64,000 bases of DNA from assembly GCA_000002445.1 (NCBI GenBank), contig CM000208.1:352001-416000 (forward strand), written 5' to 3'. Position numbers and translations under genes: made by a program. The notes under the pieces were generated by a model. That model was not told where the DNA came from and made no database searches. It worked only from the letters and a program-made list of their open reading frames with translations. The stretch comes from Trypanosoma brucei (lineage: Eukaryota). This document shows positions 33,622-56,700 of the stretch, piece by piece (positions within the stretch are counted from its first letter, which is position 1; the number at the start of each line of letters is the position of its first letter).

Positions 33622-34875
33622 CCCTCGCTGTGACGACCACGCGGATGGGTAAGCGAATGTAATCTTGTTTCTTAAAACGCAAAAGAAAAAAATCTCTAGG
33701 TACACTCGTACAGCGTTACAATTGTGATAAAGACAAGAGTCTGCTCAGGATATGGAAAAAGGAAATGAAGTTCCTCAGGCACCTATGTCCCCACAACCTT
33801 ATCAAACTAGTGGAAAATTCCCTCTGCCGGTGTGTTTTTTTTCCTCCCCCCTTTTATTTTTCTTGCACTCACTCCGCTTTGTCTGTATTATTCCCCTTTC
33901 TTCCTTCCCTCCCCTCCGCCCCGTTGTGCGACCAACAACGTACACGGGTGGTGGAAACGGAATTGTAAACTGGGAGAAAACCGTCCCCCCCCCAAAAAAA
34001 AGGAGAAAAAAACAAGAAAAAAACTTTGCTGCCGTGACTTCTGCCCACCACGGTAATTTGAGATATCACCCTCTGAAGAAAAAAAAAACAAAAAAGAGGG
34101 AAGAGGAAAGTAGAGAAATGCAGGGTGCAAAAAGAAACTTATTCCACACATCCGTCTCAGTGCAGTAGGGAGATTGGGAGCACAACATACCATGGAATTA
34201 TTGTAAACAAAATAATACATACAGTCGTTTCACCAAGTCACAACTGTAAGAAGGAAGAACGAAAAAAAAAAAAAGAGCAATTAGAAGTAAAAGCAATATG
34301 GTAATATATTTTGCGGAAAGTGGATCAGAAAACTAGGAGGTGAAGATACTGAAAATAAGTCAACAAAAACCACACTTCTCAGCACCAACTGTTGGTGTTG
34401 TATTCCGTAGCAACCACTATACGCAATGACCCCACGCTTGCGGTTGAGAAAATGAGGCCCTAAAGTGGAAAGCGTACTCCAACGAGAGGGTTGATGCTGA
34501 ACAACTAAGATATGAGAAGGAAGAAACTTCATTGGAAGAAGTCAGAATTAGAAACGTCCCGTTGCTCACATCACATAGGCCAGTCTACTTGATTTTATTT
34601 GCATTCCCTTTCCTTTGGATTTTTTTTTTCGCTGTTGTGAAATTCTCTACACACGAAAGGGATGTCTTGTTTCCAAACTGCGAGCTAAGTATTGCACGAA
34701 CCAGGGTCATCTGCCAAGCTCTGACATCCGAGCTTGACGACAGTCCGAACGAGACAGTATCCTGAGGAGCCGTTTTCATCCAATTCCCTACACTGCGGCC
34801 AATTGGAGCCGCGCCAAGTGGACTCCACGAATAACAAGGGAGGAAAACAGCAACAGAGAGTAGTAACAATGTTCT

Positions 34876-39699: not shown

Positions 39700-41838
39700 G
39701 ACAACAGAAGAAGTACTACCAACAGCAAGCAGCATACAATGCGTTATAACCGAAAACGGAAGAAAGGAAGGATGAAAGAAAGAAAGAAAGAAAGAGAGAA
39801 AATAAAGGACGGGGGAAGCGATGGTGGGAGGGGAGCAAATGTTCCTCGGCAGCAAAGGAGGGTAAAGGCCGACCAATGGAGGAAAAACAAAACAAAAAAA
39901 TTGGTGAGGCCTCACGGGGGGGGGGGGTTGAGAATTGAGAGGGATGGAAGAAAAGAAGAACACGTTCATACAAGACAAACACAAATACACGTGAAGCATC
40001 ACAAACACGAATTACGTGCAATCAACCTGCAGCGGAGAGGCAATAAAATAAAAAAAAAGAATGGCGGAGTGGAAAGGAGGAAACCAGCAGTTGAGCCCTT
40101 TCACACACACATAAAAAAAACTTAGCAGTGCACAACATGGCGGACCCGAACAGCTGCTACACAGTGATTGAGAAGGAAAATAAATAAATAAAAGAGTGGA
40201 AAGAAAGGGACGAAAATGAGAGGAGAGGAGAGGAGACGCATTTCCACATGTGGCGACCCGTTTTTCCAACCCCCACGTCATGAACTTTATATATTTTTCT
40301 TCCTTTTGTTTTTCTTCTTCCCCTTCCCTTTTCTTTTGTTTTTTTTTTGTTTTAAAGCCAGATTCATCCTCCCCTTTTTTTGTCCTTAAACAAAATAAAA
40401 ACTCGGCCATTGACGACCGGCTATTTGCTTGCCCTCTCCCTAACCCTGCACCTCTACCGTTTCTCTTCATGAGCTGCAAAACAAACATTCGCACGCCTTC
40501 TCCCAAAATACAATTACAAACACAAATACGCACAACAACTCATAAGCACAAACAACTTAACCACAGAAGACACAAAACAAAACAAAACATCCTGCCTTTA
40601 TTATTATTATTATTCCCCTCCATTTTTTTTTTTTGGGGGGGGGGGGGTTCACCGCCAACAAATAACTTTCTTCATTTCGCCATTTATCACATCATCACAT
40701 ATCTCAGCGCCCTCTACTGCATGGGTTTCAGTCACCCTTATTTTTATTTTGTTCCGCTTTGCATAACTTTTTTTTTGCTATTTAAAATTAACTAACTTCA
40801 TTTTTTTTCTTTTTTGCCGTTTGTCTCTTGTTTCACCTTATTTTAATCTTTTTTTTCTTGATTTTTTTCACACACGATTCCTTTTTTTTTTTCCGTTTCT
40901 TTTAATCTGCATGTGGATATACGCCCGTACGTACGCAACAGTTTCATCAAAAGGATATATATATATATATGTTTCTTTTTTTTTTCATTGGTTTTGTTTT
41001 GTTACTTGACAATTTCATTTCATTTTATTTCATTTCACTTTTCTTTTTTTTTCTTTTCTCCCCTTTCCCCTTTCCGTGCTATTCGCTATTTTCCTCCTTC
41101 CCTTTTCTCTCGCTCCCTCACCCCTTTTCCTCGCTACAACTTACAAACACAAACACAAACACACTCACACTCGCATGCGTGTACACACTTTTTCTTTTCT
41201 TTTCTTTTCTTTTCTTCTCTTTTCTCTTTTTTGATTTGTTTTGTTTTTTCTTTTAATTATCCGCGAGTGTTCGGGTCGTTGTTTTTGTTTGTTTGTTTGT
41301 TTCTTTTATTTCTTTTTTTTTTTGGGGGGGAGGGGGAGGTGTCTCTTTTCATATGGTCGCGATACTCATCGATTTTTTGTTTTGTTTTCTGTTTTTACAT
41401 CGGTGCATCTTCCGCCTCATTCTTTTCCTTTTCTTTTTTATCTTTTTTAAAAAACAAAAAACCTTTCAAGTCGTCCCTTTTCCTTCACCCGCACCTCCAA
41501 ACTCGTGTGTGTGTGGGGGGGGGGCTTTTTTTTTTTTCCTCCCTCCTGTTTTGTTCTGCCAACGGTACTTTTGTATTATTTTTTTTCTTCTTCTTTCTTC
41601 TTCGCTCCGATTTTTCTTTTTTTTTTTTTTGTTGTTTCAATTCATTTGCTCTTTTTTTTTTGAACTTTTCCTCTTGAGGAGGATATGGGGAGAAGAAAAG
41701 GAGTAGGAGGAGGGTTTTTTTTTTCATTCATTCATTCATTCATATCCACCCCCTTCCCTTCTCATTTCCTCCCTTACCGTTTATATGGTTGTTGCCTTTC
41801 TTTCTTTTCTTGTTTTGTTTTGTTGTTGTTTCATTTTT

Positions 41839-41884
<46 letters not shown>

Positions 41885-44230
41885 CATTTCAAGTAAAGAA
41901 TAAAAAAAGAAAAAAGAAAAAGAAAAGCCAACAGGATGGCCCTCCTCACAGCTGCATGTCACATTTATTTATTTTAACTCCTTCGTTGTTGTTTTGTTTT
42001 TGTTTTTGTTTTTGTTTTTGTTTTTTTTTTCCTCCTTCTCCCCCCACCTTTTGTTCTTTTTTTTTCGATTCTTCGGGGTCTTACGGCACTTTACCTGCTT
42101 CCATTCATCCATTTGAAAAAAAAAAAGAGGACGTGACGGGGACGGGGTGTGGGGGAGTAAAAACGAAAACAGCAGGCGCGGGTTCTTCCTTTTGTTATTA
42201 TTATTTTTTCTTTTTTTGTTCCTTTTGTTCCTTAAACATTAATATCATTTTATATAAAAACAAAACAAAACAAAAAACAAAAAAATTGCTCTCTCTCTCT
42301 CTCTCCCCGCCATTTTTGTTCCGTTTCATTCCGTTCTTGTGTATGTTATATCATATCATATCACTCAAGTTTTGTTTTTTCTTTTGTTTTTTTCTTTTTT
42401 TTCATTTTATTTTGTTTTTTGGTTTGCTTTGCCTCCCTCTCCCTCCTTCCCCACACCGCCGCGTATTTCCCCTCTTATTTCCTCTTCTCTTCACATGATT
42501 AATTTAAGTGCTATAAATAACCCTAATGGTAACAGTAACCGTCATAATAATAACAATAATAATAATGATGATGATGAAGATGATTGTGGCGGTGGTAGAA
42601 GCAGTAGTGTAAGTGAGCAGAAGGACGAATATAAATAAATAAATAAATATACAAATATATTCGCTCAAAAATACCCATACAAAACGGAAACACAGACACG
42701 AACGCGAACGCACGGACTCTTTCATATTTTGTTTTGTTATATATATATATATATATATATAATATTTTGTTTATGTATCTTTTTTTTTCTTCTGTGGTTG
42801 CCTCTCCTTCCTTTGGAGTTTTGGCCCAACACATACCCGCTATTGCCTTTTTTTTTCCCTTCTTCTTCTTCACTGGTTTTCGGTTGTTGTTTATTCTTTA
42901 TTTATATATTTTTTTCTTTTTTTTTGTGTGTGTTTTTTTTTTGCTTCCTTTTCCCTTTACCTTTACCTTTGCCATTGTCATTCTTTCTTTTTCTCTTTTG
43001 TTGTTGTTTTTGCTAATATTTTCACTCTCTCTTTCTCTCTTTTTCTTTTTCTTTTCCTGAAAACACAAGCACAAACTTTCATTTGTTTCTTTTTTCTTGT
43101 TTTTTTTCCTTTTGCCTCTTTTGTTTTTCCCCCCTATTATTTTCCCCCCTTTTTTCTTTTCGTTTTTTTACTTTTTTTTGTTTTACTTTCCGTTCACTCT
43201 GCAATAACGGGACTTCTTATTTTTTTAAAAAAAATTTTTTCCATCATCTCGCAATTCCCCTCCCCCTTATCTTTCCTTTTCCCTTATCTTTCCTTTTTAT
43301 TTCTTTTTTTTCCTTTTCCTTTTCCTTTTTCTGTTGTTGTTGTTGTTTGTTTGAAAAATATGATAATTCCGTCCCTTCCGTTCCATTTCAATTAAACTTG
43401 TATGTAGAGGGAATCGCACAATGAAAAAGAAATAAGAAGAGAAAATAATAAAAAAGGAGAAAATAATAAAAAAAGTAAAAAAGTAAAAGCAAAAAAGCAA
43501 AAAAGAAAGAAAAGGGGAAGTTGGGAGAAGGGGGAAAGAAAAAAAAAAGAAAAGAAAAGAATGCACAAATCCCGGAATGCAATGTCCCACATCACACAAA
43601 TAAACGTCTAGCATCACATCACACAATTCCCCGCCACTTTGCAGCCACCATTCCTTCACACGTGCTTTTATAAATATAAATATATATTTCCCCCTCCTTT
43701 TTTTTAAAAAAAAAAGTAAGTCTCATTTCTTGTTTGTCTTTGTTTTTGTTTCATCTTTCATTTTTTTTTGTTCTTGTTGTTGTTGCTGCTGCTGTTCCAT
43801 TCCTATTCTTCTTCCCCCATGGCGAAGAGAAGGAGGAGGGAGAGAAAGGAGGAAGTAAAGGAGATAAAGCGACGGTTCATTTCTTACGCATAATAATAGT
43901 AATAATAATAATAACAGTAATAATGATTGTAATAATTACTCTTTCTTATCTGCTCATTGACCGATAACATCTCCACTCTCCAGTTCCTTTTTTCTCCTCT
44001 TCCTCTTTCTTTGTTTTCTCACTCTTTCTCTTCCTCTTTTCTTTTTTTTTTTGCTTCTTCGTCGATTTCCCCCTCCACACACACACATACTTCTTCAAAA
44101 GAAGATGGGGGAAAAACAAAGAAACAGAAATCGAAAGTAAAAAGAAAAAAAGAGAATGAGAGAGTAGGGAAAGGAAAAGGAAAAAAAAAATAGTAACAAT
44201 AGTAACAGTAATAACAGTAGTAACGACAAC
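39700..44230. repeat. Low-complexity, microsatellite-rich, strand-asymmetric inter-CDS block of about 4.5 kb
   Basis: The + strand is strongly T/C-rich across 40250-43400, with short purine-rich islands (39740-40130, 43400-43560, 44100-44230). Embedded simple repeats include (GAAA)n near 39771, G12 at 39916-39927, T11G13 at 40624-40647, (TA)n near 40955, (CATT)n near 41720, (TA)20 at 41843-41882, (TGTTTT)n near 41995, (CT)n near 42290 and (TA)n near 42740. No credible ORF on either strand. Confidence 0.8.
41843..41882. repeat. (TA)20 dinucleotide microsatellite
   Basis: Read directly from the sequence. Confidence 0.9.
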
Positions 44231-44324: not shown

Positions 44325-47300
44325 CTAGTGAGGAATCGGTTCTTGGTGTCGTGGTGGATATAAATTGTGGATATCACCTGGGGGATTGTCATCAATGTGA
44401 TCGCGCCACTTTTGCCACATCATTTCGATTGTGTCCTCAACAATAGTGCCAGTAAGTTGGTCCTTTGCGACAATTGTTTCCTTATCATTCAACATGTAGG
44501 CGTTAATTAGGTACAGTGCTTGAAGTGTGAAGGACATAACCAAATGAAGGTGGTCGGCAAGATCAGGAATGTCGCGGAATTTCCCTTGCAAGTACTCTAT
44601 TCGCTCCTCCCGCGAGGTGAGGTTAGCTTGGTAGTCCGATGGGAAAACGAGTACGTAGTGAAGAAGTAACCCACCGATGGTGGATGGAACATCCCCAAAC
44701 GGTAATATGGAGGCGAATTCAGCAAAATCTTGCAAACTGCAGCTGCTGTTTCCAGAAAGGAACACAGTGGAGGTGATAACCTCTACAAGCTCGCGAAGGC
44801 AGCGGCACATAGCACGAACCATTACAGTGAAGGCACATAAGTGTCGACTGTAGACAGGAGCCCATACAAAGGGCAAGTTCTCACTCGCACGGCGATACGG
44901 CAGCTTGACGAGACAAGCAATACGTGAGGCCAGTAACACACGCGAGTCACTATTGGTATCCTGGTCATCCATACTAATTTCTACCTGCTGATTGGCAGGA
45001 TTGATGTAGCGACAGGGATTGCTATTGATAATTCGAACGCGGACCAACTCCGTCAGGAGAACAAAAGATGCCTGAACGTCAAGTGGGTTTGCCTTGATGG
45101 TTGCCCTCAGGTATATGGGAAAGTACACAGATGGGTAGTCCTTTAATCCCTCATCCGCCATGAAATTGATGTCGCTTGCTTCACTTCTCTTCATGCTGCT
45201 GAGATCCTTTTCGTGGTAGGCGGCCGGGACGGAACCACCCCGGTCGTGGCCATCCATCCCGCAGCACTCCATTTCCATCCCATCCACCGCGTCGTTAGGA
45301 GCAGTGGAGTGCGAAAAGTAACCGAGGAAATCAAATGACTTAAGAAGAATAGCTAAAAAGGTCTCCCTCTTGCTGTTGTAGCGGATGGGCACCCGACCTG
45401 CAGGACGGTTGCTCTCTTCCACCGCTGGTCTCGATGCATCAGCTGTGACACTAAGCACTGAGGCAATGCTATAATCTGCTAAACAGTCTTCGTCCAATTT
45501 CTTCAGCTGATCACTATCTGAGATTTCCCACTCGTCTAAGTCGATGAGGTCGCGGGGTCGATCCATCGGAGCCAATATCGGTTGAAACCATCGAACCCAC
45601 GAAAGGCACTCGGTCCGTTTGATTGGGGGCGGGTGCGCAATCCTCTTCAGTATCTGTCCAATGACTTGACTGCGCATCGTCATGAGGAGCCCTAATGTGG
45701 TGTGATAGTCCTTAGTGTCTGAAACGGGGCATTCATCACGGAGGTACGACTGTGTTATAGCCGTCATTATACGCACAGACAGCAGTCCAGAGAACTGCAT
45801 GTAAAATAGTGACAGCGGCACAAGATGACCCAACACCCCGGCGAGATTTGTAGGCATGTCGGCGTTCGTCAAGTCAGGATCGAGTACGCGAACTAAGTAT
45901 ACCAACGGTGTGTCCCGTGATTTCGTGGAGAATACCGCACTGTAACGAAGGTATCCACGCCCTTTGGAATGCTTAATGGAGAGACCGGCCTTCTTGCCCG
46001 TTTCCTGTGAGCATGCATGGGCATTGATAAAGTCCTTAATGGAGCGAAATTTCGGTGTGGGCGTGGATAGTTCCTCATAAACCTCCTGCATTGAAAGATT
46101 AAGGGTCACGCGCGCGGACGACAGTGCAGCGTGCGTTGCCGTAATGAGGCCAAGGTCCATCAACCTATCCCCCGCAACTCTAGTATTCGTTTCGGTGACG
46201 TGATTCGGGAAGAGTGCACGAAGAACCCTATCCCTGTCTAGATAATTTACGCTGCTATTAGACACGTCAATCTGCACAATGACTTTCATTTCGTCATACG
46301 GAAGCAACAACATCTCTGGCGGCCCCATTAATAAATCCGCAATTCCCTCCTTGTGGAATGCAACCATCTGCGCCCAGTTGAGGAACGGGGCCGTAACCGC
46401 CATTACGCCCAGTTCCTCCTTCAAGTAGCGTGCAACCGCCATTTGCACGTCCTCGCCTAGGGGCTGATCAAACGCTTCTTGAATTTCCACTTCATCCGGT
46501 ATTTCACCATCCTCCAGCTTACTCCAGACGGCGTCGCGAGCACGCAGCTCCGCCTCAGTCGTTAGAAATGTCTCCACATCACCACTCACGCTAAGACCGT
46601 TGAAGACCCAAATGGGTTCCAGTTTCATGTTTCGCATCCACTCCACGTGCTGCTGCACTAACATGAGTAATTCCTCGGGGAGTGTAGAGTGAAGAAACCA
46701 CAAGGAGTCTCTCTTCCTGAGCTCATCACGAAGACTCGTAAGGCAGAAGTTACCGTCCACAGCCACTTTCAGCGCGGGGTCGTCCTTTCCATATCCCTCT
46801 GGAAAGAACTTTGAGATATTGTCCACCGACACAAGGCCCCGATCATGTAGAAAATCGTAAAGCGCCTCCGTGGAGCCGCTCATATTCGCATCGTCCCCCG
46901 GAAATGTGTCACCCATGCTTGGGGTCGTAGGGATCATAGCGTGCGGACTGGGCGACACGCCTGGTAGAGGCATAAAGTTGCCCACTTGGGGGGGTAAACC
47001 TTGGCCCATCATGGGCGACTGATTCATGCGGTTGGGAGGCATCATCCCAGGATCAGGTGTACCTATGCGCGGTGGACGTGATGCGTTTGATGCAGGCATT
47101 TGGGGACCCATCCCCCTTGCCCGCATTTCCAAGTAACCAGCATTGCCACCACCACCACCGCCACCACCAATACCAGCCGGGGGCCTCGACGCGTTCATCG
47201 GACCTCCAGGGCCAACACCTGCACCAGGCAAAACGCCACCGTACGGCGGGCCCGCCGGCATCGGTGGTGGCGGTGGTGGTCCCACAGGTGCACCCGCACC

Positions 47301-47987
47301 GTAACCTACCTGCGCTGGAGGGCTTACGCGCGTATCCGGGTACCCGTCATGACGCATCATTGGTGCACCGTACATTCCGCTGGGTTGCATATGTTCCATG
47401 AGAGGTTGTCCTCCACGACCAAATCCCATTGGCGTGTGCGCCCCTTGATGGGGAAGTGCACCGTACCCACCGGGAAGGGGTGCACCGGCAGGAAGCCCGT
47501 TGTGCATCGCTGGGTTACGCCCGTAAGGAATATTTGCTCCACCTCCCATATGGGAAGGGGAGGAAGGATACTGGCCACCGTGCACATCTCGGTACATTCC
47601 ACCCATATCTCCGTAACCACCACCGGTGCCCGGGCTCATTTGATTGTAGCCCTGATTATACATGGGCGTCTGCTGCGGAGGACTATTCCACGGACTGCCA
47701 GAGACACCCTGCCCAAAACTATGTGGTGGCATTTGCGGCTGACGGATGTTGTCGTAAGCATTACCGTAAACGCCATTGTGATGGGGGTGATGATGGTGAT
47801 GTTGGTGCGGATGCTGGTGAGGATGTTGGTGCTGGTGCTGATGTTGATGCTGATGCTGATGATGGTGCTGATGCTGATGATGGTGCGGATACATCATAGA
47901 GGGGCCTGGGGGTGACATTTGTGGCCCCTGCTGTCCCAGGTTTCGGCCCTGTCGTTCATTATTGCGATTTGCTCCAGCTTTCCTCAT
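44325..47987 (-). CDS. MKT1L: MKT1-like protein (MKT1L-type): N-terminal Gln/His/Pro/Gly/Met-rich low-complexity extension plus an MKT1/XPG-like N domain and an MKT1 C-terminal region (start moved to the first ATG; the track start at 48011 is a GTG)
   Basis: The first ATG (MRKAGANRNN) is at 47987-47985. Residues after the roughly 380-aa low-complexity region read EALYDFLHDRGLVSVDNISKFF...KVAVDGNFCL, which resembles the yeast Mkt1 N-terminus (LESFLFERGLV...). A HQHQHQHQHPHQHHHHH tract is encoded by imperfect CAC/CAG repeats. Confidence 0.7.
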   Translation of the reverse strand: MRKAGANRNNERQGRNLGQQGPQMSPPGPSMMYPHHHQHQHHHQHQHQHQHQHQHPHQHPHQHHHHHPHHNGVYGNAYDNIRQPQMPPHSFGQGVSGSPWNSPPQQTPMYNQGYNQMSPGTGGGYGDMGGMYRDVHGGQYPSSPSHMGGGANIPYGRNPAMHNGLPAGAPLPGGYGALPHQGAHTPMGFGRGGQPLMEHMQPSGMYGAPMMRHDGYPDTRVSPPAQVGYGAGAPVGPPPPPPMPAGPPYGGVLPGAGVGPGGPMNASRPPAGIGGGGGGGGNAGYLEMRARGMGPQMPASNASRPPRIGTPDPGMMPPNRMNQSPMMGQGLPPQVGNFMPLPGVSPSPHAMIPTTPSMGDTFPGDDANMSGSTEALYDFLHDRGLVSVDNISKFFPEGYGKDDPALKVAVDGNFCLTSLRDELRKRDSLWFLHSTLPEELLMLVQQHVEWMRNMKLEPIWVFNGLSVSGDVETFLTTEAELRARDAVWSKLEDGEIPDEVEIQEAFDQPLGEDVQMAVARYLKEELGVMAVTAPFLNWAQMVAFHKEGIADLLMGPPEMLLLPYDEMKVIVQIDVSNSSVNYLDRDRVLRALFPNHVTETNTRVAGDRLMDLGLITATHAALSSARVTLNLSMQEVYEELSTPTPKFRSIKDFINAHACSQETGKKAGLSIKHSKGRGYLRYSAVFSTKSRDTPLVYLVRVLDPDLTNADMPTNLAGVLGHLVPLSLFYMQFSGLLSVRIMTAITQSYLRDECPVSDTKDYHTTLGLLMTMRSQVIGQILKRIAHPPPIKRTECLSWVRWFQPILAPMDRPRDLIDLDEWEISDSDQLKKLDEDCLADYSIASVLSVTADASRPAVEESNRPAGRVPIRYNSKRETFLAILLKSFDFLGYFSHSTAPNDAVDGMEMECCGMDGHDRGGSVPAAYHEKDLSSMKRSEASDINFMADEGLKDYPSVYFPIYLRATIKANPLDVQASFVLLTELVRVRIINSNPCRYINPANQQVEISMDDQDTNSDSRVLLASRIACLVKLPYRRASENLPFVWAPVYSRHLCAFTVMVRAMCRCLRELVEVITSTVFLSGNSSCSLQDFAEFASILPFGDVPSTIGGLLLHYVLVFPSDYQANLTSREERIEYLQGKFRDIPDLADHLHLVMSFTLQALYLINAYMLNDKETIVAKDQLTGTIVEDTIEMMWQKWRDHIDDNPPGDIHNLYPPRHQEPIPH
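47795..47895. repeat. Imperfect in-frame CAC/CAG (His/Gln) codon repeat within the MKT1-like CDS
   Basis: The + strand reads gatg/ctgatg-type repeats gtgatgatggtgatgttggtgcggatgctggtgaggatgttggtgctggtgctgatgttgatgctgatgctgatgatggtgctgatgctgatga. Confidence 0.8.
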
Positions 47988-49054
47988 TTGTGCTTCCCCC
48001 GTCTGTTCCACCTAACTAACACACGCACGCCCAGACAACAACTACGACTAACAACACCTCCAAAGAAAAAATTGCTATTTTTTTTCTTTAAAAAAAAAAA
48101 GCGACGGCAACAACTACAACTACAAATATATAACAGCTGCTTTCAAGGAAAGGTGCAACGTTAACACACTTTCCCCCTTTACTATTGCTTTATATACAAA
48201 AGTTAACAACACAGGAGGAAATGCAGGAGAGAGAAGGGAGATTATTAAGGGAGGTAAGGGAAAAGAAAATGCAGGACCTGTGATACACAGACAAGCTTGA
48301 TCCAGGCCTCCCCGGGAACTGGGGTGCCCAGACACAGGCGTAGAAAATAAAAGAAGGAAAAAATAAAGAAATGGAAGTAACGGGAAAGCCCCCACAGAAA
48401 CGCTAAAGATGATTCCCCTTCAGATTAACCTCAGATACCCACTGGGAAGTTACGAAGTGTGGTAATACAACAGCTTCTCAAGAAATGAGTGAACAAACAA
48501 ATAAAGTAAAGGAATACCCGCCCAGGTGCACATATATCAACTCTCCCCAACGCTACTCTCTCTCCAGCACCCCCTTTCGCGTTTTGTTTAAGCAGCCCAC
48601 TGCGTTACCGGCGTTTGTCAATTTAAATACTACCAATTATTATTCTTGCACCTGCTCATATGTCCCTCACCTGCACGATGTTACCATCGGGGCGCAGCGG
48701 CCATTTCACGGACAGCTCTGAGTCATTTTCGAAAAAAAAGGGCGAAAACTACAAAACTACAACAACACAATTGTGAATCATAAAAGAAGGAAAAGTGATG
48801 ATTTTAGGAGAACTCGAAGCCAAACGGAACCGAGGCGATCAATCAAAAACACACACAAAAAGAAAAGCATACGGGGTTTCCCCCAGGAAAATTTTTAAAG
48901 TTTCACTGAGACGTGGGGAGAAAAAAATAGGTTGAACAGCGAATAGCGTGCGCTGGAGCACGAATGAGGCGGCTGTGACGGAAGATGATGAAGAGAAAAT
49001 AAGTAAGAGGAAATGAGAACCGCTATTGGCTAGCTAAAGAAATCATTCGTACAC

Positions 49055-51376
49055 TTATGTACTCTTTGTATTCTCTGTTGAGCGCTTGCTGAACAGCACC
49101 TCGCCCTCCACTGCGGGGCCGAGACGCGTTCCAGGAGGAACGGCACCAAACTCAAAGTTCTCAATACCTTTACGATGTACCTCGGGGACGCCCAACATGT
49201 CAAAAATAACAACGGACTTCCGCGGAAGAATTGGGGAAAGGAGCAGCGTCGTCACGCGTACACCCTCCAGGGTAATGTACAGCACCGTGCGGAGCCGTTC
49301 CGGGTCTGTTTTGACGAGTTTCCATGGCGCCATGTCGGTGACGTAAGCGTTGATGGCACGTAGCACGTCGAAAACGGCAATGATAGCTTTCTGTATGTCG
49401 GGAATCAGGTAGTAGTGATCCGCCGTTCCAGGCAAATCCTTAATGAGTTGTATGAGGGACTCGTCCTCCTCGGTGTAAGCCGCAGGACTGGGCCACTCGC
49501 CGTTAACATTTATCTTCGCAGAAGTGCACCGCATGACAAGATTGCCGAGCGTATCAGCAAGCTCACCATTAAGGCGGGCAATCATGTTCTTGTCACTGTA
49601 GTCACCATCATCGGAGAAGCCCGACTCCCGAAGCAGGAAGTACTTAAGCGCATCGTAACCAAACTCCTCTGCCTTCTCCACCGGATCGAAAACGTTCCCG
49701 AGGGATTTGCTGATCTTCTTGCGATCCTTTGTCCACCACCCATGTGCGACAATCTTCTTGGGTAGTGGAAGGCCAGCAGAGAGCAGGAACGCAGGCCAGT
49801 AAATTGCGTGGAACTTCAAAATGTCTTTCCCAATAACGTGAACATCAGCAGGGAAGCGCTCGAGCTCGCTAAAGTCATCCGCTAGGCTCACCTCCTTCCC
49901 GGATTCATCTACTCGAAGACGTGAACCAGTTAAATAATTCGTCAGAGCGTCGAGCCAGACATAAACGCAGTGGTCTGGGTTGCCTGGAACGGGTATCGCC
50001 CAGTTGTGCAGTGTTTCCTTCTTGCGGGAGACACTCAGGTCAGGCAAGCCCTTCTCCACCGCGCGAATTACCTCCCTTCTGCGAAACTCTGGCACTATGC
50101 AACCGGGGTTGGCATGGTACCATTCCAAAAGCCTCTCGCGGAACGCGCTCAGGCGGAACATATAATTTTCTTCTGAGACCCACGTTACGACGTGCCCACT
50201 TTCGAGGCTCACTTTGCATGGATTGCCATCCTTGTCAACTCCGTCCGTGATGTTCTGTGGCGTAAGGAAGGACTCATCACTGATTGAATACCAACCTTCA
50301 TAACGGCCGAGATAGATGTCACCTTTCTGCTCCAACTTCGTCCATAGCTCCTTAACCACCGCCTTGTGTTGCTCATTGGTGGTGCGAATGAAGTAGTCGA
50401 TGCTGTAATCCATCTGTTCAAAACACTTCTTGAACTCGCCAGCCACAGCAGCCGTAAAATCATACGGAGAAACCTGTTTCTGCTTGGCAGCTTCGGCTAC
50501 CTTCTGCCCGTGTTCATCGGTGCCAGTCAATGCAAACACCCGCTCTCCCTTCACGCGGTGGTACCTCCCAATGACGTCGGTAATCAAAGTGCTGTACACG
50601 TGACCAATGTGTGGTGCTGCATTCACGTAGTAAATGGGTGATGTGACAAAGAATACTTTCTCCACCTTAGCCGACACCTTGTACACACGTGGGCACCGCA
50701 AGAAGTCGGCAGCTTCCTGCACAGAGAGGTTCTCGAAGGCGTTATCAATCAACGTCTTCTGTTCCTTTTGAAATGTATTGAACCACTTCACAAGATGCGG
50801 TAGCTGTTGCTTCTCCGAGTCCCGCAGCACACCGCTCTCGCAGAGAGCAGGAAGGACAGCACACCATACAATACAGTCAATGAAAAAAGTGCTGACGGCA
50901 TCGGTGGGATCCGCAGCCCCTTTACCTTCAACAGCTGGAGAGTAAACACAGCGGTCATCATTTTCACTAATCTTTTTGTCGAGATATGAAAACACAGCCA
51001 GAGACTCCGCCGTTTGCCGTCGTTGCGTGTAGAGCGGGTGCACAGCACGGGTAAAAGTCGTTGCCTCCCACTCCAACCACGTCTCGTGCTCCAATGTCAG
51101 GTTTGTCAAACCGGCAACGGGAGAGGCGGTACCGTCACCATTAGATGAATCTGCTGCCCCTCCATTATTACTAGTGGGTTCAACGCTGTAAAATAAAATG
51201 ACGCGGGCCATTTCGTTAGGTGCAATGATGGGCTGCTTGAAGGCTGGATGGTGCAAAATAGGAGTTGCATATGCTCCCGATAGCGACACCTCTACGGGTC
51301 GTTTAACGTAATAAGAGCACAGCAACACCTTGAGGGCTTGTGAGTTGGCCTTTTCTGAAAGCAGCTTTAGAGCCAT
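49055..51376 (-). CDS. MetRS: Methionyl-tRNA synthetase (class I) with an N-terminal appended domain of about 230 aa
   Basis: 773-aa ORF. HIGH motif ([16 protein letters not shown]), KMSKS motif (KISKSLGN), connective-peptide and anticodon-binding regions. Start coordinate taken from the ORF track; my own position count placed the ATG about 1 nt lower (51373-51375). Confidence 0.9.
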
Positions 51377-53759
51377 CCCGTGAAATGCAGAGCCTGATTG
51401 GTGCTTCAGACGACAACCTATCTTTGGGCTTATTTTATCTTTCTTTCTCTTCTTTTTAAAGGGTTGTTCCTGTTTTGTTCGCCTTCCTTATTGTAAACGA
51501 AGTGATAGATAGGTACTCCTAAGCTCACTTTGTTATTCTTTCCTTTTAGAATATGTTTTTTTTGTGTGTGTGGTTTCACTGTTGTTTATGTTTCTAGCGT
51601 TACTTATCGTTCCCCCTTCCCTTTGAAGTTGTCAGTGGCGGTGCTTTGGCTCAACTGATAGCGTCTTTTTTTTTTTTTTTAAAGGCTACTGCTGTCAGAT
51701 CTCCTTTCAGCAGTTATTCCTCCCTTTATTCCTTGTTGTCCTTTTTTGTAAATGTATATCTCGCCTACTGTCTTGATCGTCACGAACTATACGCCTTACT
51801 GATTTCCTCCTTCAGTGCCTATTTATTTGTTTGAAAAATCCCTTGCGTCACAGTGGACATCACCGCAACATGACGAAATAGTGAGACACAAAAAAATAGA
51901 GAGAAAAAGTAAAGAGTTAAAGGGAGGAAATATGCATGTGTATTGTTTTACTTGTTTTTGCACTATCTTAACAGGTAAAGTTAGCATTACTACGACGCAT
52001 CCGTACAGCATGCGCGTTACATCACATGTCCATCCAATTTACTTCGCTACTTTTGCCTTGTCGCAGCTGCTGATGAAATTTTCCTGTCCGCTGAAAGCAT
52101 ATGTATGGTTTGTAAAGAAGATGTAGAAAGAAAGAAAGGAAAAGAAAAAAGGAAGGTGAGATATTAGTAAACAAATACGCACAAATACAAACATATATGC
52201 GCATATAAATAAATAAATACATATATACAGGAGGGAAAGTAGTTATCTCGCATTGATTGATTGATTGATTGATCGACTTATTTATTTTGTTTGCTTGATT
52301 AGGTCTGACGCACGTACTCTCTTTCTCTCTCTCTCTGATGCACGCTCTGGGGGGGGGGGGAAACAAAAACAATAATATAAAAGAGGCATGCAGCGAAACG
52401 ACGCTTTCAGTCAGACATTCATTCACTTAAAAAAAGAAAAGGAGGAAAGGGATAAATGGATGGATGGATGAGAAGGAGAAGGAGAAGGGAAAAAAGCAAA
52501 GTAAAGTAAAGGAGATAAAGGGGAAAAGAAAAAAAAGAATTGAATGAATTGAAGTGACGGAAATGAACTAAAGGTGTGAAGAAATTTTTATTTTTTATTT
52601 TAAAAAAGATGAGTAGAAGGGGGAAACAGAGGAATAAAAAATTTTTTAAGAAACAAGGAAGGGGATTAATTAATTACTTTTTTTTTTCTTTCATACCTTT
52701 TTCACCTTCATCTTCACCCTTCTTTTTTTTTCCTTTTCCCCACCACCACCACCACCACCACTCCCTTCATAATTTATTCTTCACCAACAGCACTCACAAT
52801 TTGCGCAACGAAACACATCTCGTTGGGAGGAACAATACACAAGTACAAGCACACACAAATACAAGGAAATATGAATACCGGTAATAATCATAAAATTAGA
52901 ATGAAAGTGAAAATTAAAAAAAAACACCAGAATGAAACCCGTAATTATCACAAGCGATGATGACCGCTTTTTTTTTTTCCTTCTCCTATTTCTTTATTTA
53001 CTTTTTGTTTGATCATAAGGCAAGGGCTAAACAACTTATTCCCACCAATGTTATTCGCATCATCGCCTCACCGTCCTTCTGTTTTAGCATTTATTTACTG
53101 TCATTTGCATTTCCATCTCTCTCATTTTATTTTTCCTTTTCTCCCTTCCATCTGCACCCTTCTCGTATTATTTTTCTTTTTTGTTTCCTCCCCTCCCCTC
53201 CCTTTAATACATAAAATTGCTGCATACCTTCTTTTCTCAAAAAAACAAAAACAAACAACAATTTTCGCTGCTGTTATTCATATCCTCACTTATTAATATT
53301 ACTGTTGCCGTTACTGATATCACCCATCCTCTCCTCGTTTTACTCTTTCTTTCTTTTTCAAGCTTCTGTAGTTACTCGTTTTGGTATTCACTATTTTCAG
53401 AAAAAGGAAACAAAAAAAAAACTAACCATCACATCACATCACATTCCCCACCTTCTCGCATAAATAATTAATAAAAATGGAAAGAAGAATGGAAAAGAAA
53501 AAAATTGAGACAAACAGATACGGTGAAGGGGAGTGGTTGACCGCACAAACATAAACGCACACACAAACACACACGTAACAACACACAAAAATTACATATG
53601 AAAGGGCGAATGAGGGTCTTAATTTTATTTTTAAAAAAAATTAATATTAAAAAACGCTGAAAGGTGAAAAATACCAGCAACAACAAGGCAAACTAAAGAA
53701 AAAAGAAGCGTAAAGAAAAAAAAATGAAGTGAAGTGAAAACAATTCAAACCTGTGTTAC

Positions 53760-56700
53760 CTACTTCTTGCCTTGAGTTGCGGAGGTGGAAGCAGATCCGG
53801 TCGATTGCTGCACCTGTTGCTGGGCGTTTCGGGACTCCACTGAGCGTCGCAGTTTTGTGAACATACTCTCTAAGAAAGATGTACTGCATATAAAACTCTT
53901 CTCCCAGAAACCATACTCTGGGGCCCTCATGAGCTCCATGAATGTACTGAGTACTCCCCACGGATGCGGTTGAATGATGAGTGTTTTTTCCACCGCCACA
54001 CGAGTGATTTGCTCTTGGATGCACTGCTGAACCACGGCGTTGCGAATGGATCGGTGGGGAAGGAAGAGGTTGGATATAACCTTCACGAAGAAGTTCGTTT
54101 GACAGTTCGGGTAACGCAGATGGTTAGCGCAGGAACAGATAAAGTAATAGCGGTGTTCGTGGTCCAATGAGCCCGCAAGGTGGCGGTAGAAACGCATAGC
54201 GTTGGATTCAGGAAAGTTGGGCTTCACAGCATGATCGTTTACCTGCAAGTACACAATGCAAACGTGCAGTACGATGGCATTCATCAGCCGCCAGTTGTGC
54301 AACGACTGCAACTTCTCCACAATACTTTGCATGTAAGACTCGGACATTGGTCGGTCATCCTGCAATTTCTCGGACAAAGCGTTTCCATCGAAGTGGTGCT
54401 GTTTGAAACTCTCCTCAATACACTTTACTTGATTGTCGGTCGCAGGGTGCTTCCGCATCTCCGAGCCATCGTCTGGCACACGCGCAAAGAACTCCGGTAA
54501 CTTCACACCCGACGGGAAGGAGCACAAAACAGTGTTTAGCAACTGCACACAGTACGGTGGGATGGCGTCACACAACTGGTAGTGATACGTAATAAGAAAG
54601 CGTGAGTAGTCGTGTGTGAGTACCAACATCAGCTTGAAGAACGCCTTGTAGAACACGAGTACGTTTTTGGAAATATTTCCTTCACGCGTGAAGCGCTCAA
54701 TAAACTCGAGCCCCTGAACTAACAGCGCAACATAGGAGGGCCAGGGCACAGGCGAACGTAGACAGCGGTTGAGGAATATACGGTGACTCACAAGCTCCAG
54801 CCATCCAAAAGTGAACGCAGGATATTTGAGTGGCGGGAGGTTATGAAGAGTATCAGCAAAAGCACTTGTGATTTGCTCCATCGTCTCACGCTTTGGCGAA
54901 TCCGCACGCACGAGCGTGGTAAAGAGATTACTGAAGAAGCGCACGTAGGGTTGTTGTTGGAACATCGGTGCGTAGGCGGTGCCAGCGGGAAGCTCAGACT
55001 TTGCATTTCCAAGGTGATTGGGGTTCTGAGCCTGTTGTAAACGTACAACGACCGCCTGATGATTATCTATGAGCGCCCATTGGAACGCATCCAGAACCCG
55101 CCTGAGTAACGTAAGAAGTGTCCGCGACTCGTTCTTCAACGAGCAGTAATATAACAACACTGTCACTAGGTCAGACAAGGCATCCACATGTGTGAAAAGC
55201 CCGTCATCGTACTGGTAACGATGGGGTGGAGCGTTGCCTGGCTTCCATTCAGCGGTCAAAGCACGGCCGAGTACCGCCGGGTTGGAGCGCTCCAACTCCA
55301 ACGACTTGGTGGCGTAGTGTTCAACACAGAAGCGTAGTGACGTAGTGAGGAACGTCCTAAGTTGCGGGCCGTCAAGCTGCTTGTTGTCTCGTAACTTCAT
55401 CATGTACTCATACTGTGGTGGTGGTTTGTTACCCGGTAACGCCGCTGATGTTGTAGACGTAGGAGCAGCGGTGGCAGAAGCGGGGGACGATGTAGTCGGT
55501 GCTGTTGCGCCCTCCTGTGACGGAGCATTGGTCGCGGCACCACTGGCCTGGTTAGACTCGCTGGACGAGCTGTGCATTCTCCGTGCGTTAACAATCAACC
55601 ACTCTTCAAACAATCCTCGAATTTTCTCTGCATCTTCTTGATTTTGGGGTGCAAGCGTAGGCACAACAAGCCGCCGTACATGCTGCTCTACCAAGTTGGA
55701 GAGCGCAGGGGAAGCTCGCATGGCGTTGGTTGGTGCTGCGCCTCCCGGCGCCATCTGAGCCCCACCCATTGCTCCCGAATCCTGTCCACTCGCAGGAAGT
55801 TGCTGGGACTGTGGCTGGTGCCGCTGCTGCTTGGGCTGATTCTGCTGCTGGCGGGGCGTTTGGTTGTCCTGTTTACTGGCAATGCTCTCTAGCTGGGACA
55901 CTGTGTCCCTCAATTCCTTTGCACTAAGGAGCTTCTCATTCACGATTACCCTGGATAATGTTGCGCCAGCGAAGTCTACTACACCTTGCCGCCCCATCCC
56001 CTCAGCCAACAGTGCCTTAGAGAGCGCCGCGTCGAATCTGGAGACGTTGAGCACCTTAATACGCAAGAGATTAACCGCAAGGTCCGTGTAGCTCCAGCGC
56101 TGCTCCGCCTGCAAATACAACTGCGTCAATTCTTCGCGAATAATATCTCCCCCGCGCTCATAACACGTTTGCAATACAAAGAGGTAGACCTCGTTGAGCA
56201 GGTTGCAGACATTTCTGTGACGAGCAGTAGTGAGGTCATTGCTTGCGGCTGTCCCACTATCGGCACGCTTCATCGCACCTGCAAGCACAAACAACTTGCG
56301 AAGCATTGGGCCGACGCAGTAGATGGCTGTTTCGGCATTGATGATGTTTGAAATACCGATTACCCGAGTGCGGATAACATCGTGGCTTTCGCCAAAGTGT
56401 CCGTTCGCAAACTCGGGGCTTGTCAGCGATAGCACCTTAGCGTCGCCCGTAGAGTAGTGTTGGACTGTGGCGTCCTCCAACGTACGCACATACGCAGTAA
56501 GCAGCCCAACAACGGGCACACTGTTGTTGAATTCCTCATAGACTGCCCGCTGCAGCGGTGGCAAATTGTGAGGCGGTCGCAACACCTCACCCATATGCAT
56601 CAACAGATCCCGCACATCGTGATACTCCTTTGGGGCTCGTGGGGGTTCACGGGCGGTAATTTGATCAATCTTTTCCTTGATAATCTTGTCTAACTTCTCA

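What the first reader, a model, noticed from the sequence alone, without database searches (positions are those of the whole stretch)
44325..47987. MKT1-like gene with a 380-aa prion-like N-terminal extension that includes a pure His/Gln tract
The C-terminal roughly 840 aa resembles MKT1 (an XPG/PIN-like N domain with the EALYDFLHDRGLV start). The N-terminal extension is Gln/Pro/Gly/Met/Tyr/His-rich (PGMMPPNRMNQSPMMGQG, YNQGYNQMSPG, HQHQHQHQHPHQH), a composition typical of proteins that partition into RNP granules. Because the His/Gln tract is a CAC/CAG microsatellite, its length could vary between alleles. The gene sits two positions downstream of NOT1, with MetRS in between, so two mRNA-fate regulators lie in one locus.
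Basis: partly seen in the sequence, partly recalled or inferred. Interest (0 to 1): 0.55.

Follow-up and report, generated by a model that had tools for sequence, protein, structure and literature searches.

The report
Known trypanosome gene MKT1L, rediscovered

Summary
Window 44325..47987 (-) encodes 1220 aa: a 373-aa low-complexity N-terminus plus an 847-aa body with significant MKT1_N and MKT1_C hits and a Rad2/XPG/EXO1-like fold. The neighbouring MetRS is identical to the T. brucei TREU927 protein. The gene's length (1220 aa), its position next to MetRS and NOT1, its 36-residue His/Gln tract and Ser1005 all match published Tb927.10.1490 (MKT1L).

That protein, its N-terminal extension and the tract were described in 2020 (Nascimento/Clayton; bioRxiv 10.1101/2020.03.02.973057, JBC 295:10940). 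It is essential, forms PBP1-LSM12-XAC1 complexes as an alternative to MKT1, and its PIN domain is probably inactive. Deleting the N-terminus unmasks EIF4E6/EIF4G5 binding.

- The tract is not pure (3 Pro) and is not a CAC/CAG microsatellite. Codons are mixed CAT/CAC/CAG/CAA, and the longest perfect run is 17 nt.
- The assembled tract has the same length in a second T. brucei-group sequence, and the Lister 427 CDS has the same total length. It does differ between species (20 to 113 residues).
- The tail is Gly/Pro/His/Met-rich, not Q/N-rich, and fails a classical prion-domain criterion.
- NOT1-MetRS-MKT1L adjacency is ordinary trypanosomatid synteny and is absent in Bodo.

Verdict: already known, low interest.

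The parts
44325..47987 (-). MKT1L coding sequence (Tb927.10.1490 equivalent), 1220 aa plus stop
   Evidence: ORF and translation. Same 3663-nt / 1220-aa length as published Tb427.10.1490/Tb927.10.1490. Residue 1005 is Ser, matching the published phosphosite S1005. The N-terminus MRKAGANRNNERQGR is conserved in T. cruzi, T. melophagium and T. vivax, which supports ATG 47987 as the start.
46869..47987 (-). N-terminal low-complexity extension, aa 1-373 (Gly/Pro/His/Met/Gln-rich, predicted disordered)
   Evidence: Composition. AlphaFold2 of aa 1-420 gives mean pLDDT 41.6 with no secondary structure before aa 374. Kinetoplastid orthologues carry compositionally similar extensions of about 130-750 aa; one unnamed 840-aa Logan homologue (P0034) and three annotated-truncated models do not show a full one. 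Alignable at about 50-58% identity within Trypanosoma, with conserved Met/Tyr/Arg/Gly positions.
47778..47885 (-). His/Gln tract, aa 35-70 (23 H, 10 Q, 3 P); imperfect CAY/CAR repeat
   Evidence: No indel relative to Logan contigs L001-L004. 20 aa in T. cruzi, 28 in T. melophagium, 113 in T. vivax.
45855..46868 (-). Rad2/XPG/FEN1/EXO1-type PIN-like domain, about aa 374-711, with a degenerate active site
   Evidence: Family profile hits human EXO1 at E=2.4e-5. AF2 model pLDDT 77, pTM 0.80. Foldseek top hits are EXO1 (E=2e-9, TM about 0.65-0.72 on target), FEN1 and Rad2. The positions aligned to EXO1 D78/E150/D152/D171/D173 are N463/L536/W538/P557/M559.
45597..45854 (-). MKT1_N domain (PF12247), aa 712-797
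   Evidence: Pfam E=3.5e-14, 53.3 bits against a cut-off of 27.
44499..45110 (-). MKT1_C domain (PF12246), aa 960-1163
   Evidence: Pfam E=6.9e-17, 62 bits against a cut-off of 27.
45129..45308 (-). Internal low-confidence, species-variable acidic loop (aa 894-953) between MKT1_N and MKT1_C
   Evidence: AF2 pLDDT below 50 for model residues 520-579. Length-variable and poorly conserved among Trypanosoma orthologues.
48090..48100 (-). Upstream T11 polypyrimidine tract followed by AG: candidate trans-splicing signal (inferred only)
   Evidence: Sequence. Its length differs (11 against 13-16 T) between the window and L001-L003. The role is inferred from general trypanosome mRNA processing and was not tested.
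49055..51376 (-). Neighbour: methionyl-tRNA synthetase (Tb927.10.1500)
   Evidence: Pfam tRNA-synt_1g E=9e-99. Exact protein match to T. brucei TREU927 XP_822407.1. Published as 773 aa at Tb927_10_v5.1:401714-404035(-).
53760..60740 (-). Neighbour: NOT1 (Tb927.10.1510), 2326 aa
   Evidence: Pfam Not1 E=1.4e-98 plus CNOT1 domains. The published length is also 2326 aa.

Best explanation
The feature is the Trypanosoma brucei gene MKT1L (Tb927.10.1490) on chromosome 10.

Anatomy:
- An intrinsically disordered 373-aa Gly/Pro/His/Met/Gln-rich N-terminal extension, containing a 36-residue His/Gln(/Pro) tract.
- An 847-aa MKT1-type body: a Rad2/XPG-like PIN fold whose metal-binding carboxylates are mostly replaced, followed by MKT1_N and MKT1_C.

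How it works:
- Shown in the literature: MKT1L is cytoplasmic and essential in both life-cycle stages. It binds PBP1 and forms PBP1-LSM12-XAC1 complexes that are alternatives to the MKT1-containing ones. It raises reporter expression when tethered. Unlike MKT1, it shows no specific RNA-binding-protein or mRNA partners.
- Shown here: the body very probably acts as a protein scaffold rather than a nuclease.
- Inferred: the disordered N-terminus acts as an autoinhibitory or regulatory tail that masks the EIF4E6/EIF4G5-binding surface, because its deletion unmasks that interaction in yeast two-hybrid assays. It probably also contributes multivalent weak contacts that help partition the complex into starvation stress granules.

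The His/Gln tract evolves by slippage on the scale of species but is stabilised within T. brucei by codon heterogeneity and Pro interruptions. Adjacency to NOT1 is conserved synteny without demonstrated functional meaning.
For: Identity:
- The MetRS next door is an exact match to T. brucei TREU927.
- CDS length 3663 nt / 1220 aa, strand and neighbours match published Tb427/Tb927.10.1490.1500 and .1510.
- Ser at position 1005 matches the published phosphosite.
- The paper's '35 residues almost exclusively Gln and His' corresponds to the 36-aa tract.
- The region shared with T. brucei-group Logan contigs (aa 109-1220) is 99% identical.

Domains and fold: Pfam MKT1_N and MKT1_C; family profile against EXO1, E=2.4e-5; AF2 model pTM 0.80 with Foldseek hits to EXO1, FEN1 and Rad2.

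Dead active site: five of the carboxylate positions are N/L/W/P/M. [quoted passage not shown]

Disorder and composition.

Published function: PBP1 binding, self-activation by the N-terminus and EIF4E6/G5 binding after deletion of the N-terminus; essentiality; tethering activation; complexes; cytoplasmic location; enrichment in the starvation granule fraction with log2 ratios 6.3, 4.5 and 5.0.

Conservation of the extension across kinetoplastids.
Against: - The exact 1220-aa sequence is not in the protein collection, so identity with the database entry Tb927.10.1490 rests on length, position, neighbours, the phosphosite and the description rather than a residue-by-residue comparison.
- The physiological role of the MKT1L complex is stated to be unknown.
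- The autoinhibition idea rests on yeast two-hybrid data only.
- The granule fraction also enriches non-granule proteins such as MetRS, and the authors say that not all enriched proteins are granule components.
- An earlier report placed the Leishmania tarentolae homologue in spliceosomal preparations and at nuclear-periphery speckles.
- An invariant Glu (E558) sits between the two lost Asp positions, so residual metal binding cannot be formally excluded.
Confidence: 0.9

Rival explanations
1. The N-terminal extension is a bona fide prion-like (Q/N-rich, amyloid-prone) domain that drives self-templating aggregation.
For: The region is low in complexity, has few charged residues (7.8% DEKR), is predicted disordered and contains short YNQGYNQ-like and GYG motifs. 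The full-length protein self-activates in yeast two-hybrid assays through its repetitive N-terminus. It is enriched in the starvation granule fraction.
Against: The maximum is 23 Q+N per 80 residues, against the classical threshold of at least 30. Asn is not enriched and Gln only 1.9x, whereas Pro is 17% and Gly 19%. From general knowledge of prion-propensity scales, high proline content disfavours amyloid formation. No aggregation data exist, and tagged protein is diffusely cytoplasmic.
Confidence: 0.07
2. The His/Gln tract is a hypervariable coding microsatellite whose length differs between alleles or strains and tunes MKT1L activity.
For: The tract is a CAY/CAR repeat (TRF period 6, 16.7 copies). 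Its length differs greatly between species: 20 aa in T. cruzi, 28 in T. melophagium, 36 in T. brucei and 113 in T. vivax. The paper reports expansion in T. vivax.
Against: There is no indel in the tract between the window and a second haplotype that differs at 7 of 1112 residues (four Logan assemblies). It shows only 3 point substitutions, while a nearby poly-T tract does vary in length. Lister 427 has the same 3663-nt CDS. The repeat is only 72% matching, with a longest perfect run of 17 nt and three Pro interruptions. Caveat: short-read assemblies collapse alleles, and only three sequences were compared.
Confidence: 0.1
3. MKT1L is an active structure-specific nuclease of the XPG/FEN1/EXO1 type that acts on RNA or DNA.
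For: The fold is clearly of Rad2/XPG type. The equivalents of the first and last catalytic Asp appear to be retained (D411 in AVDGNF; GDR D607), and an invariant E558 is present. Related family members ASTE1 and FAM120B are reported to have nuclease activity.
Against: The positions aligned to EXO1 D78, E150, D152, D171 and D173 are N, L, W, P and M. The surrounding motifs WVFNG, APFLNW and GPPE are largely conserved across kinetoplastid orthologues. The authors reached the same conclusion from their alignment.
Confidence: 0.04
4. NOT1 and MKT1L are placed together because they form a functional gene cluster of mRNA-fate regulators.
For: The order NOT1-MetRS-MKT1L-kinase is conserved in T. brucei, T. 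cruzi and Leishmania infantum. Both proteins appear in starvation granule data.
Against: All genes lie on one strand in a polycistronic unit. Trypanosomatid gene order is broadly syntenic irrespective of function, and polycistronic neighbours are not co-regulated as operons (general knowledge; see also the paper's introduction). In Bodo saltans the MKT1L homologue has neither MetRS nor NOT1 in the 7.5 kb upstream. An unrelated housekeeping gene (MetRS) sits between the two.
Confidence: 0.03
5. MKT1L is primarily a nuclear or spliceosome-associated factor rather than a cytoplasmic PBP1-complex subunit.
For: The L. tarentolae homologue co-purified with SmD3/U1A splicing complexes, and over-expressed PTP-tagged protein gave perinuclear speckles.
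Against: In T. brucei no spliceosomal components co-purified. V5- and TAP-tagged protein and TrypTag GFP fusions were cytoplasmic. PBP1/LSM12/XAC1 association was robust.
Confidence: 0.05

Closest known systems
Trypanosoma brucei MKT1L (Tb927.10.1490; Nascimento et al. 2020, bioRxiv 10.1101/2020.03.02.973057; JBC 295:10940)
   Same: All features compared match: 1220 aa, position next to MetRS and NOT1, PIN/MKT1_N/MKT1_C architecture, an N-terminal low-complexity extension with a His/Gln tract of about 35 residues, and Ser1005.
   Different: No difference was detected. A residue-by-residue comparison with the database entry was not possible with these tools.
T. brucei MKT1 (Tb927.6.4770, 735 aa) and yeast/fungal Mkt1
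   Same: Rad2/XPG-like N domain followed by MKT1_N and MKT1_C. Both bind PBP1/Pbp1. The second catalytic Asp is Asn in the fungal MKT1 P0008 as well (VFNG).
   Different: Published identity to T. brucei MKT1 is only about 20%, and 21% to the Aspergillus MKT1. MKT1 lacks the 373-aa extension. MKT1 binds H(N/D)PY-motif RNA-binding proteins and EIF4G5 and associates with mRNAs, whereas full-length MKT1L does not.
Human EXO1 / FEN1 / yeast Rad2 (structure-specific 5' nucleases)
   Same: Same fold: Foldseek E=2e-9 with TM about 0.7 on the target, and profile E=2.4e-5.
   Different: Five of the seven metal-binding carboxylates are replaced. There is a large C-terminal MKT1_N/MKT1_C addition, and no evidence for nucleic-acid cleavage.
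Methionine-rich, redox-sensitive low-complexity domain of yeast Pbp1/ataxin-2 (Kato et al. 2019, as cited in PMC12345631)
   Same: A disordered Met-rich region in a subunit of the same Mkt1-Pbp1-Lsm12 type of complex. Met is 8.3% of the extension (3.8x background) and 7-12% in the trypanosomatid orthologues.
   Different: It lies on a different subunit (MKT1L rather than PBP1), has a different overall composition (Gly/Pro/His-rich), and has no experimental link to redox state or phase separation. The resemblance is compositional only.
Other trypanosome mRNA-fate proteins with Pro/His/Gln-rich regions (for example ZC3H28)
   Same: [quoted passage not shown]
   Different: ZC3H28 is an RNA-binding zinc-finger protein that recruits MKT1. 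MKT1L was not associated with it.

Membership tests
MKT1 family (Pfam MKT1_N + MKT1_C after an XPG/PIN-like domain) | MKT1_N domain (PF12247) above the gathering score | tested here: met
   aa 712-797, 53.3 bits against 27, E=3.5e-14.
MKT1 family (Pfam MKT1_N + MKT1_C after an XPG/PIN-like domain) | MKT1_C domain (PF12246) above the gathering score | tested here: met
   aa 960-1163, 62 bits against 27, E=6.9e-17.
MKT1 family (Pfam MKT1_N + MKT1_C after an XPG/PIN-like domain) | Rad2/XPG-type PIN-like fold preceding the MKT1 domains | tested here: met
   Pfam XPG_N alone is sub-threshold (14.3 bits against 22). The family profile hits EXO1 at E=2.4e-5, and the AF2 model (pTM 0.80) matches EXO1/FEN1/Rad2 by Foldseek at E=2e-9.
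MKT1 family (Pfam MKT1_N + MKT1_C after an XPG/PIN-like domain) | Binds PBP1/Pbp1 (ataxin-2 homologue) | not testable with these tools
   Published: the N-terminally deleted protein binds PBP1 in yeast two-hybrid assays, and MKT1L co-purifies with PBP1, LSM12 and XAC1.
Kinetoplastid MKT1L orthogroup (Tb927.10.1490) | Genomic position: same strand, immediately downstream of MetRS (.1500) and NOT1 (.1510) | tested here: met
   The same order is found in T. cruzi and L. infantum.
Kinetoplastid MKT1L orthogroup (Tb927.10.1490) | 1220-aa product with an N-terminal low-complexity extension that includes a His/Gln tract of about 35 residues | tested here: met
   1220 aa and a 36-aa tract, against the published length of 1220 and '35 residues'. 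S1005 is present.
Kinetoplastid MKT1L orthogroup (Tb927.10.1490) | Residue-level identity to the database entry | not testable with these tools
   The exact sequence is not in the protein collection. The closest sequence is 99% identical, from T. brucei-group Logan contigs.
Active FEN1/XPG/EXO1 5' nucleases | Conserved set of metal-binding carboxylates (EXO1 D30, D78, E150, D152, D171, D173, D225; numbering from my own knowledge, supported in part by the PDB mutant names D173A and D225A for EXO1 and D86N, D181A and D233N for FEN1) | tested here: not met
   The HMM alignment to EXO1 places N463, L536, W538, P557 and M559 at the D78, E150, D152, D171 and D173 positions. D411 and D607 may correspond to D30 and D225, which lie outside the aligned stretch.
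Prion-like (Q/N-rich) domains | At least 30 Gln+Asn in an 80-residue window (Michelitsch-Weissman criterion, from my own knowledge) | tested here: not met
   The maximum is 23. Among the orthologues only Bodo (35) and Novymonas (39) pass.
Prion-like (Q/N-rich) domains | Low content of charged residues and of proline | tested here: inconclusive
   Charged residues are low at 7.8% (met), but Pro is 17.2%, 3.3x background (not met).
Prion-like (Q/N-rich) domains | Positive PLAAC/PAPA score; self-templating aggregation | not tested
   These predictors are not available here, and there are no experimental data.
Intrinsically disordered low-complexity region | Biased composition, few order-promoting residues, no predicted structure | tested here: met
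   ILV 6.4% against 24% in the body; per-40-aa entropy 2.4-3.4 bits against 3.6-3.9. AF2 pLDDT about 40 with no helix or strand before aa 374 (the alignment was shallow, 5 sequences).
Unstable coding microsatellite / contingency repeat | Long perfect repeat run | tested here: not met
   The longest perfect run is 17 nt (2.8 hexamer units). Four codon types plus three Pro codons.
Unstable coding microsatellite / contingency repeat | Length polymorphism among conspecific sequences | tested here: not met
   No indel against L001-L004. The Lister 427 CDS has the same length. Only three sequences were compared, and alleles are collapsed in short-read assemblies.

The most novel reading that the evidence does not exclude
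The conserved Met/Tyr/Arg/Gly positions and the His tract would make the MKT1L N-terminus a stimulus-responsive 'sticker' domain. Methionine oxidation (as in yeast Pbp1), histidine protonation or metal binding would switch it. In one state it masks the EIF4E6/EIF4G5-binding surface. In the other it drives PBP1-complex condensation into starvation granules, toggling PBP1 complexes between an inactive reserve and an active translation-promoting form. The composition is conserved across trypanosomatids (Met 7-12%, Gly and Pro each about 14-28%). Nothing tested here excludes this reading, and nothing tests it directly.
Probability: 0.15. Interest if true: 0.45.

Novelty: already known. Interest (0 to 1): 0.1.

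Why it matters
MKT1 and PBP1 complexes are central to post-transcriptional control in trypanosomes, which lack gene-specific control of transcription initiation. MKT1L is essential in both life-cycle stages, yet the role of its complex is still described as unknown. The finding adds nothing to what was published in 2020.

The checks here add four small points:
- A residue-level account of the lost active site.
- Evidence that the His/Gln tract has the same assembled length in two T. brucei-group sequences, with equal CDS length in a third, while it varies about five-fold between species.
- The low-complexity tail is Gly/Pro/His/Met-rich rather than Q/N prion-like, and similar tails occur in orthologues as distant as Bodo.
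- The NOT1 adjacency is trypanosomatid synteny that is absent in Bodo.

Tried and rejected
1. A single-sequence search of the body against PDB sequences found nothing at E<=1. A family profile was needed to reach EXO1.
2. Exact look-ups of the full 1220-aa protein and of the M109-start version found nothing, so the annotated T. brucei entry could not be retrieved for direct alignment.
3. The first homologue search, with the full-length protein, was swamped by low-complexity words and returned only 8 hits. Repeating it with the body alone gave 24.
4. The JBC version of the paper (PMC7415969) is not held, so the bioRxiv version was used.
5. I considered a third large protein search, or the representative-library search, to collect more T. 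brucei alleles and MKT1 proper. I rejected both as disproportionate for an already published gene.
6. There is no H(N/D/E/Q)PY MKT1-binding motif in MKT1L, so it is unlikely to be an MKT1 client through that motif.
7. The antisense ORFs at 47057..47915 (+) are by-products of the biased composition of the repeat region, not genes.
8. The Med15-like resemblance mentioned in the paper did not appear in the current Pfam scan at E<=1.

Full report
**Observation**

The minus strand of the window carries an uninterrupted reading frame from the ATG at 47987 to the stop at 44325 (3663 nt, 1220 aa). The mechanical ORF begins eight codons earlier at a GTG. EALYDFLHDRGLV starts at residue 374, so the protein divides into a 373-aa N-terminal region and an 847-aa body.

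The start codon is supported by conservation of MRKAGANRNNERQGR... in T. cruzi, T. melophagium and, upstream of a truncated gene model, T. vivax.

**Domains and fold of the body**

Pfam finds MKT1_N (aa 712-797, E=3.5e-14) and MKT1_C (aa 960-1163, E=6.9e-17), both well above the gathering scores. XPG_N is only a sub-threshold hint.

A profile built from 25 homologues hits human EXO1 in the PDB at E=2.4e-5. An AlphaFold2 model of aa 374-1220 (mean pLDDT 77, pTM 0.80) matches EXO1, FEN1 and Rad2 catalytic cores by Foldseek, with E down to 2e-9 and TM about 0.65-0.72 normalised on the target. The 'XPG/PIN-like N domain' is thus confirmed by fold.

In the HMM alignment to EXO1, the positions of D78, E150, D152, D171 and D173 are occupied by N463, L536, W538, P557 and M559. 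The roles of those EXO1 residues are from my own knowledge. The mutant names of the PDB entries are consistent with D173 and D225 (EXO1) and with D86, D181 and D233 (FEN1). The nuclease active site is therefore not preserved.

**Which gene it is**

- The neighbouring 773-aa MetRS is an exact match to T. brucei brucei TREU927 XP_822407.1.
- A published proteomics table lists Tb927.10.1500 (MetRS, 773 aa), Tb427/Tb927.10.1510 (NOT1, 2326 aa) and Tb427.10.1490/Tb927.10.1490 ('hypothetical, PIN domain', 1220 aa, a 3663-nt minus-strand CDS). These are the same lengths, order and strand as in the window.
- A phosphoproteomic study names MKT1L S1005 (Tb927.10.1490), and residue 1005 of this translation is Ser.

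The feature is T. brucei MKT1L.

**What is already published**

From bioRxiv 10.1101/2020.03.02.973057 (the JBC version is cited):
- MKT1L has PIN, MKT1_N and MKT1_C domains, and only about 20% identity to MKT1.
- The PIN domain is probably inactive.
- It forms complexes with PBP1, LSM12 and XAC1 that are alternatives to the MKT1 complexes.
- RNAi stops growth in bloodstream and procyclic forms.
- Tethering raises reporter expression.
- It is cytoplasmic.
- No specific RNA-binding-protein or mRNA partners were found.
- The repetitive N-terminus self-activates in yeast two-hybrid assays.
- Its deletion reveals binding to PBP1 and to EIF4E6/EIF4G5.
- The low-complexity region is noted in T. cruzi and T. 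congolense and is 'expanded to 130 residues' in T. vivax.

A later paper still calls the role of the MKT1L complex unknown.

**The N-terminal extension**

Against 7702 residues of other proteins in the window, it is enriched in Gly (18.8%, 3.2x), Pro (17.2%, 3.3x), His (8.6%, 3.5x), Met (8.3%, 3.8x) and Gln (8.0%, 1.9x). Asn and Tyr are not significantly enriched. Charged and aliphatic residues and Cys are depleted.

The richest 80-residue window holds 23 Gln+Asn, below the classical threshold of 30 for Q/N-rich prion-like domains (the criterion is from my own knowledge).

AlphaFold2 on aa 1-420 gives pLDDT around 40 and no secondary structure until residue 374, where the first helix of the folded body begins. 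That alignment was shallow.

The region is therefore a disordered low-complexity tail, but 'prion-like' in the strict sense is not supported.

Kinetoplastid orthologues carry comparable tails of about 130-750 aa, with Gly 10-28%, Pro 10-24% and, in trypanosomatids, Met 7-12%. One unnamed 840-aa Logan homologue (P0034) has no tail, and three annotated-truncated models do not show a full one. Within Trypanosoma the tail aligns at about 50-58% identity, with invariant Met, Tyr, Arg and GRGG positions. Some constraint beyond composition is therefore likely.

**The His/Gln tract**

It spans residues 35-70 (window 47778..47885) and contains 23 His, 10 Gln and 3 Pro. Its codons are CAT 14, CAC 9, CAG 7, CAA 3, plus CCT, CCG and CCC. 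TRF reports period 6 at 72% matches, and the longest perfect hexamer run is 17 nt.

Four Logan assemblies of a second T. brucei-group haplotype (7 differences in 1112 aa) show no indel in the tract. They show only three point substitutions: two synonymous and one Pro to Ser. A poly-T run about 200 nt upstream does differ in length between the same sequences. Lister 427 has the same CDS length.

Between species the tract is 20 aa (T. cruzi), 28 (T. melophagium), 36 (T. brucei) and 113 (T. vivax, read from the DNA upstream of the truncated model).

The tract is labile over evolutionary time, but no length variation was seen among the three T. brucei-group sequences compared. Only three sequences were compared, and short-read assemblies collapse alleles.

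**Granules**

In a starvation stress-granule-enriched fraction, Tb927.10.1490 had normalised log2 starved/control ratios of 6.29, 4.55 and 5.01. These are similar to MKT1 and PBP1, and NOT1 was confirmed microscopically in those granules.

MetRS is equally enriched in that fraction, and the authors state that not all enriched proteins are granule components. Nothing links it to the N-terminus.

**Locus**

All substantial ORFs are on the minus strand, which indicates one polycistronic unit. The order NOT1-MetRS-MKT1L-protein kinase is the same in T. cruzi and L. infantum. In Bodo saltans the homologue is preceded by unrelated genes. Given general trypanosomatid synteny and the lack of operon-like organisation, the proximity of NOT1 and MKT1L is best read as coincidence.

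**Mechanism**

- Shown in the literature: an essential, alternative MKT1-like subunit of PBP1-LSM12-XAC1 complexes.
- Shown here: a Rad2/XPG fold with a degenerate active site, hence a scaffold, and a disordered tail.
- Inferred: the tail masks an EIF4E6/G5-binding surface and supplies weak multivalent contacts.

**Verdict**

The feature is real and correctly recognised as MKT1-like. Novelty: already known. Interest: low.

Noticed in passing
window 27903..32165 (inside ORF 25003..33705, minus strand): Eighteen near-identical (99%) tandem copies of a 237-nt (79-aa) unit lie inside a 2900-aa ORF. Pfam gives only a dubious repeated AMP-binding_C signal with no significant single stretch. It is probably a large repetitive trypanosome structural protein.
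   Followed up: no
window 48090..48100 (minus strand), upstream of the MKT1L ATG: The poly-T run (T11) followed by AAAG is 13-16 T in Logan contigs L001-L003, whereas the coding His/Gln repeat shows no length change. It is a candidate polypyrimidine tract for trans-splicing, which was not tested.
   Followed up: partly
L008:652..1089 (T. vivax contig NLFJ01001294.1): The annotated T. vivax protein P0003 (TRVL_07713) starts inside the repeat. The frame is open from an upstream ATG at about 652 (MRRLGGNRNSERQ...) and includes a 113-residue His/Gln tract (L008:751..1089). The gene model is therefore N-terminally truncated.
   Followed up: yes
L007:7521..12931 (Bodo saltans CYKH01002189.1): The Bodo homologue is split into two called genes. 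MKT1_N is on the 1565-aa product and MKT1_C on the following 214-aa product, and the locus DNA did not translate to the deposited protein. This is probably an annotation or assembly break. Its N-terminal tail is about 750 aa and strongly Q/N/H-rich.
   Followed up: no
window 45129..45308 (aa 894-953 of MKT1L): An internal acidic/Gly-rich loop between MKT1_N and MKT1_C has pLDDT below 50 and varies in length and sequence between Trypanosoma species. The heat-shock-regulated phosphosite S1005 lies about 50 residues further on.
   Followed up: no
window 47057..47915 (+ strand): Three overlapping antisense ORFs (114-271 aa) lie opposite the low-complexity coding region. Their translations are themselves low in complexity (His/Arg/Thr/Val-rich), and they are best explained as by-products of the biased sequence.
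   Followed up: partly
window 40001..44000 and 52001..54000: Intergenic stretches are markedly AT- and pyrimidine-rich (GC 33-36% against about 50% in genes), with many short T/C-rich repeats. This is typical of trypanosome UTRs and intergenic regions.
   Followed up: no
window 49055..51376 (MetRS): In the published starvation-granule fraction, the housekeeping MetRS encoded next door is enriched as strongly as MKT1L (log2 5.8-7.5). Enrichment in that fraction is therefore not specific evidence for RNP-granule membership.
   Followed up: partly
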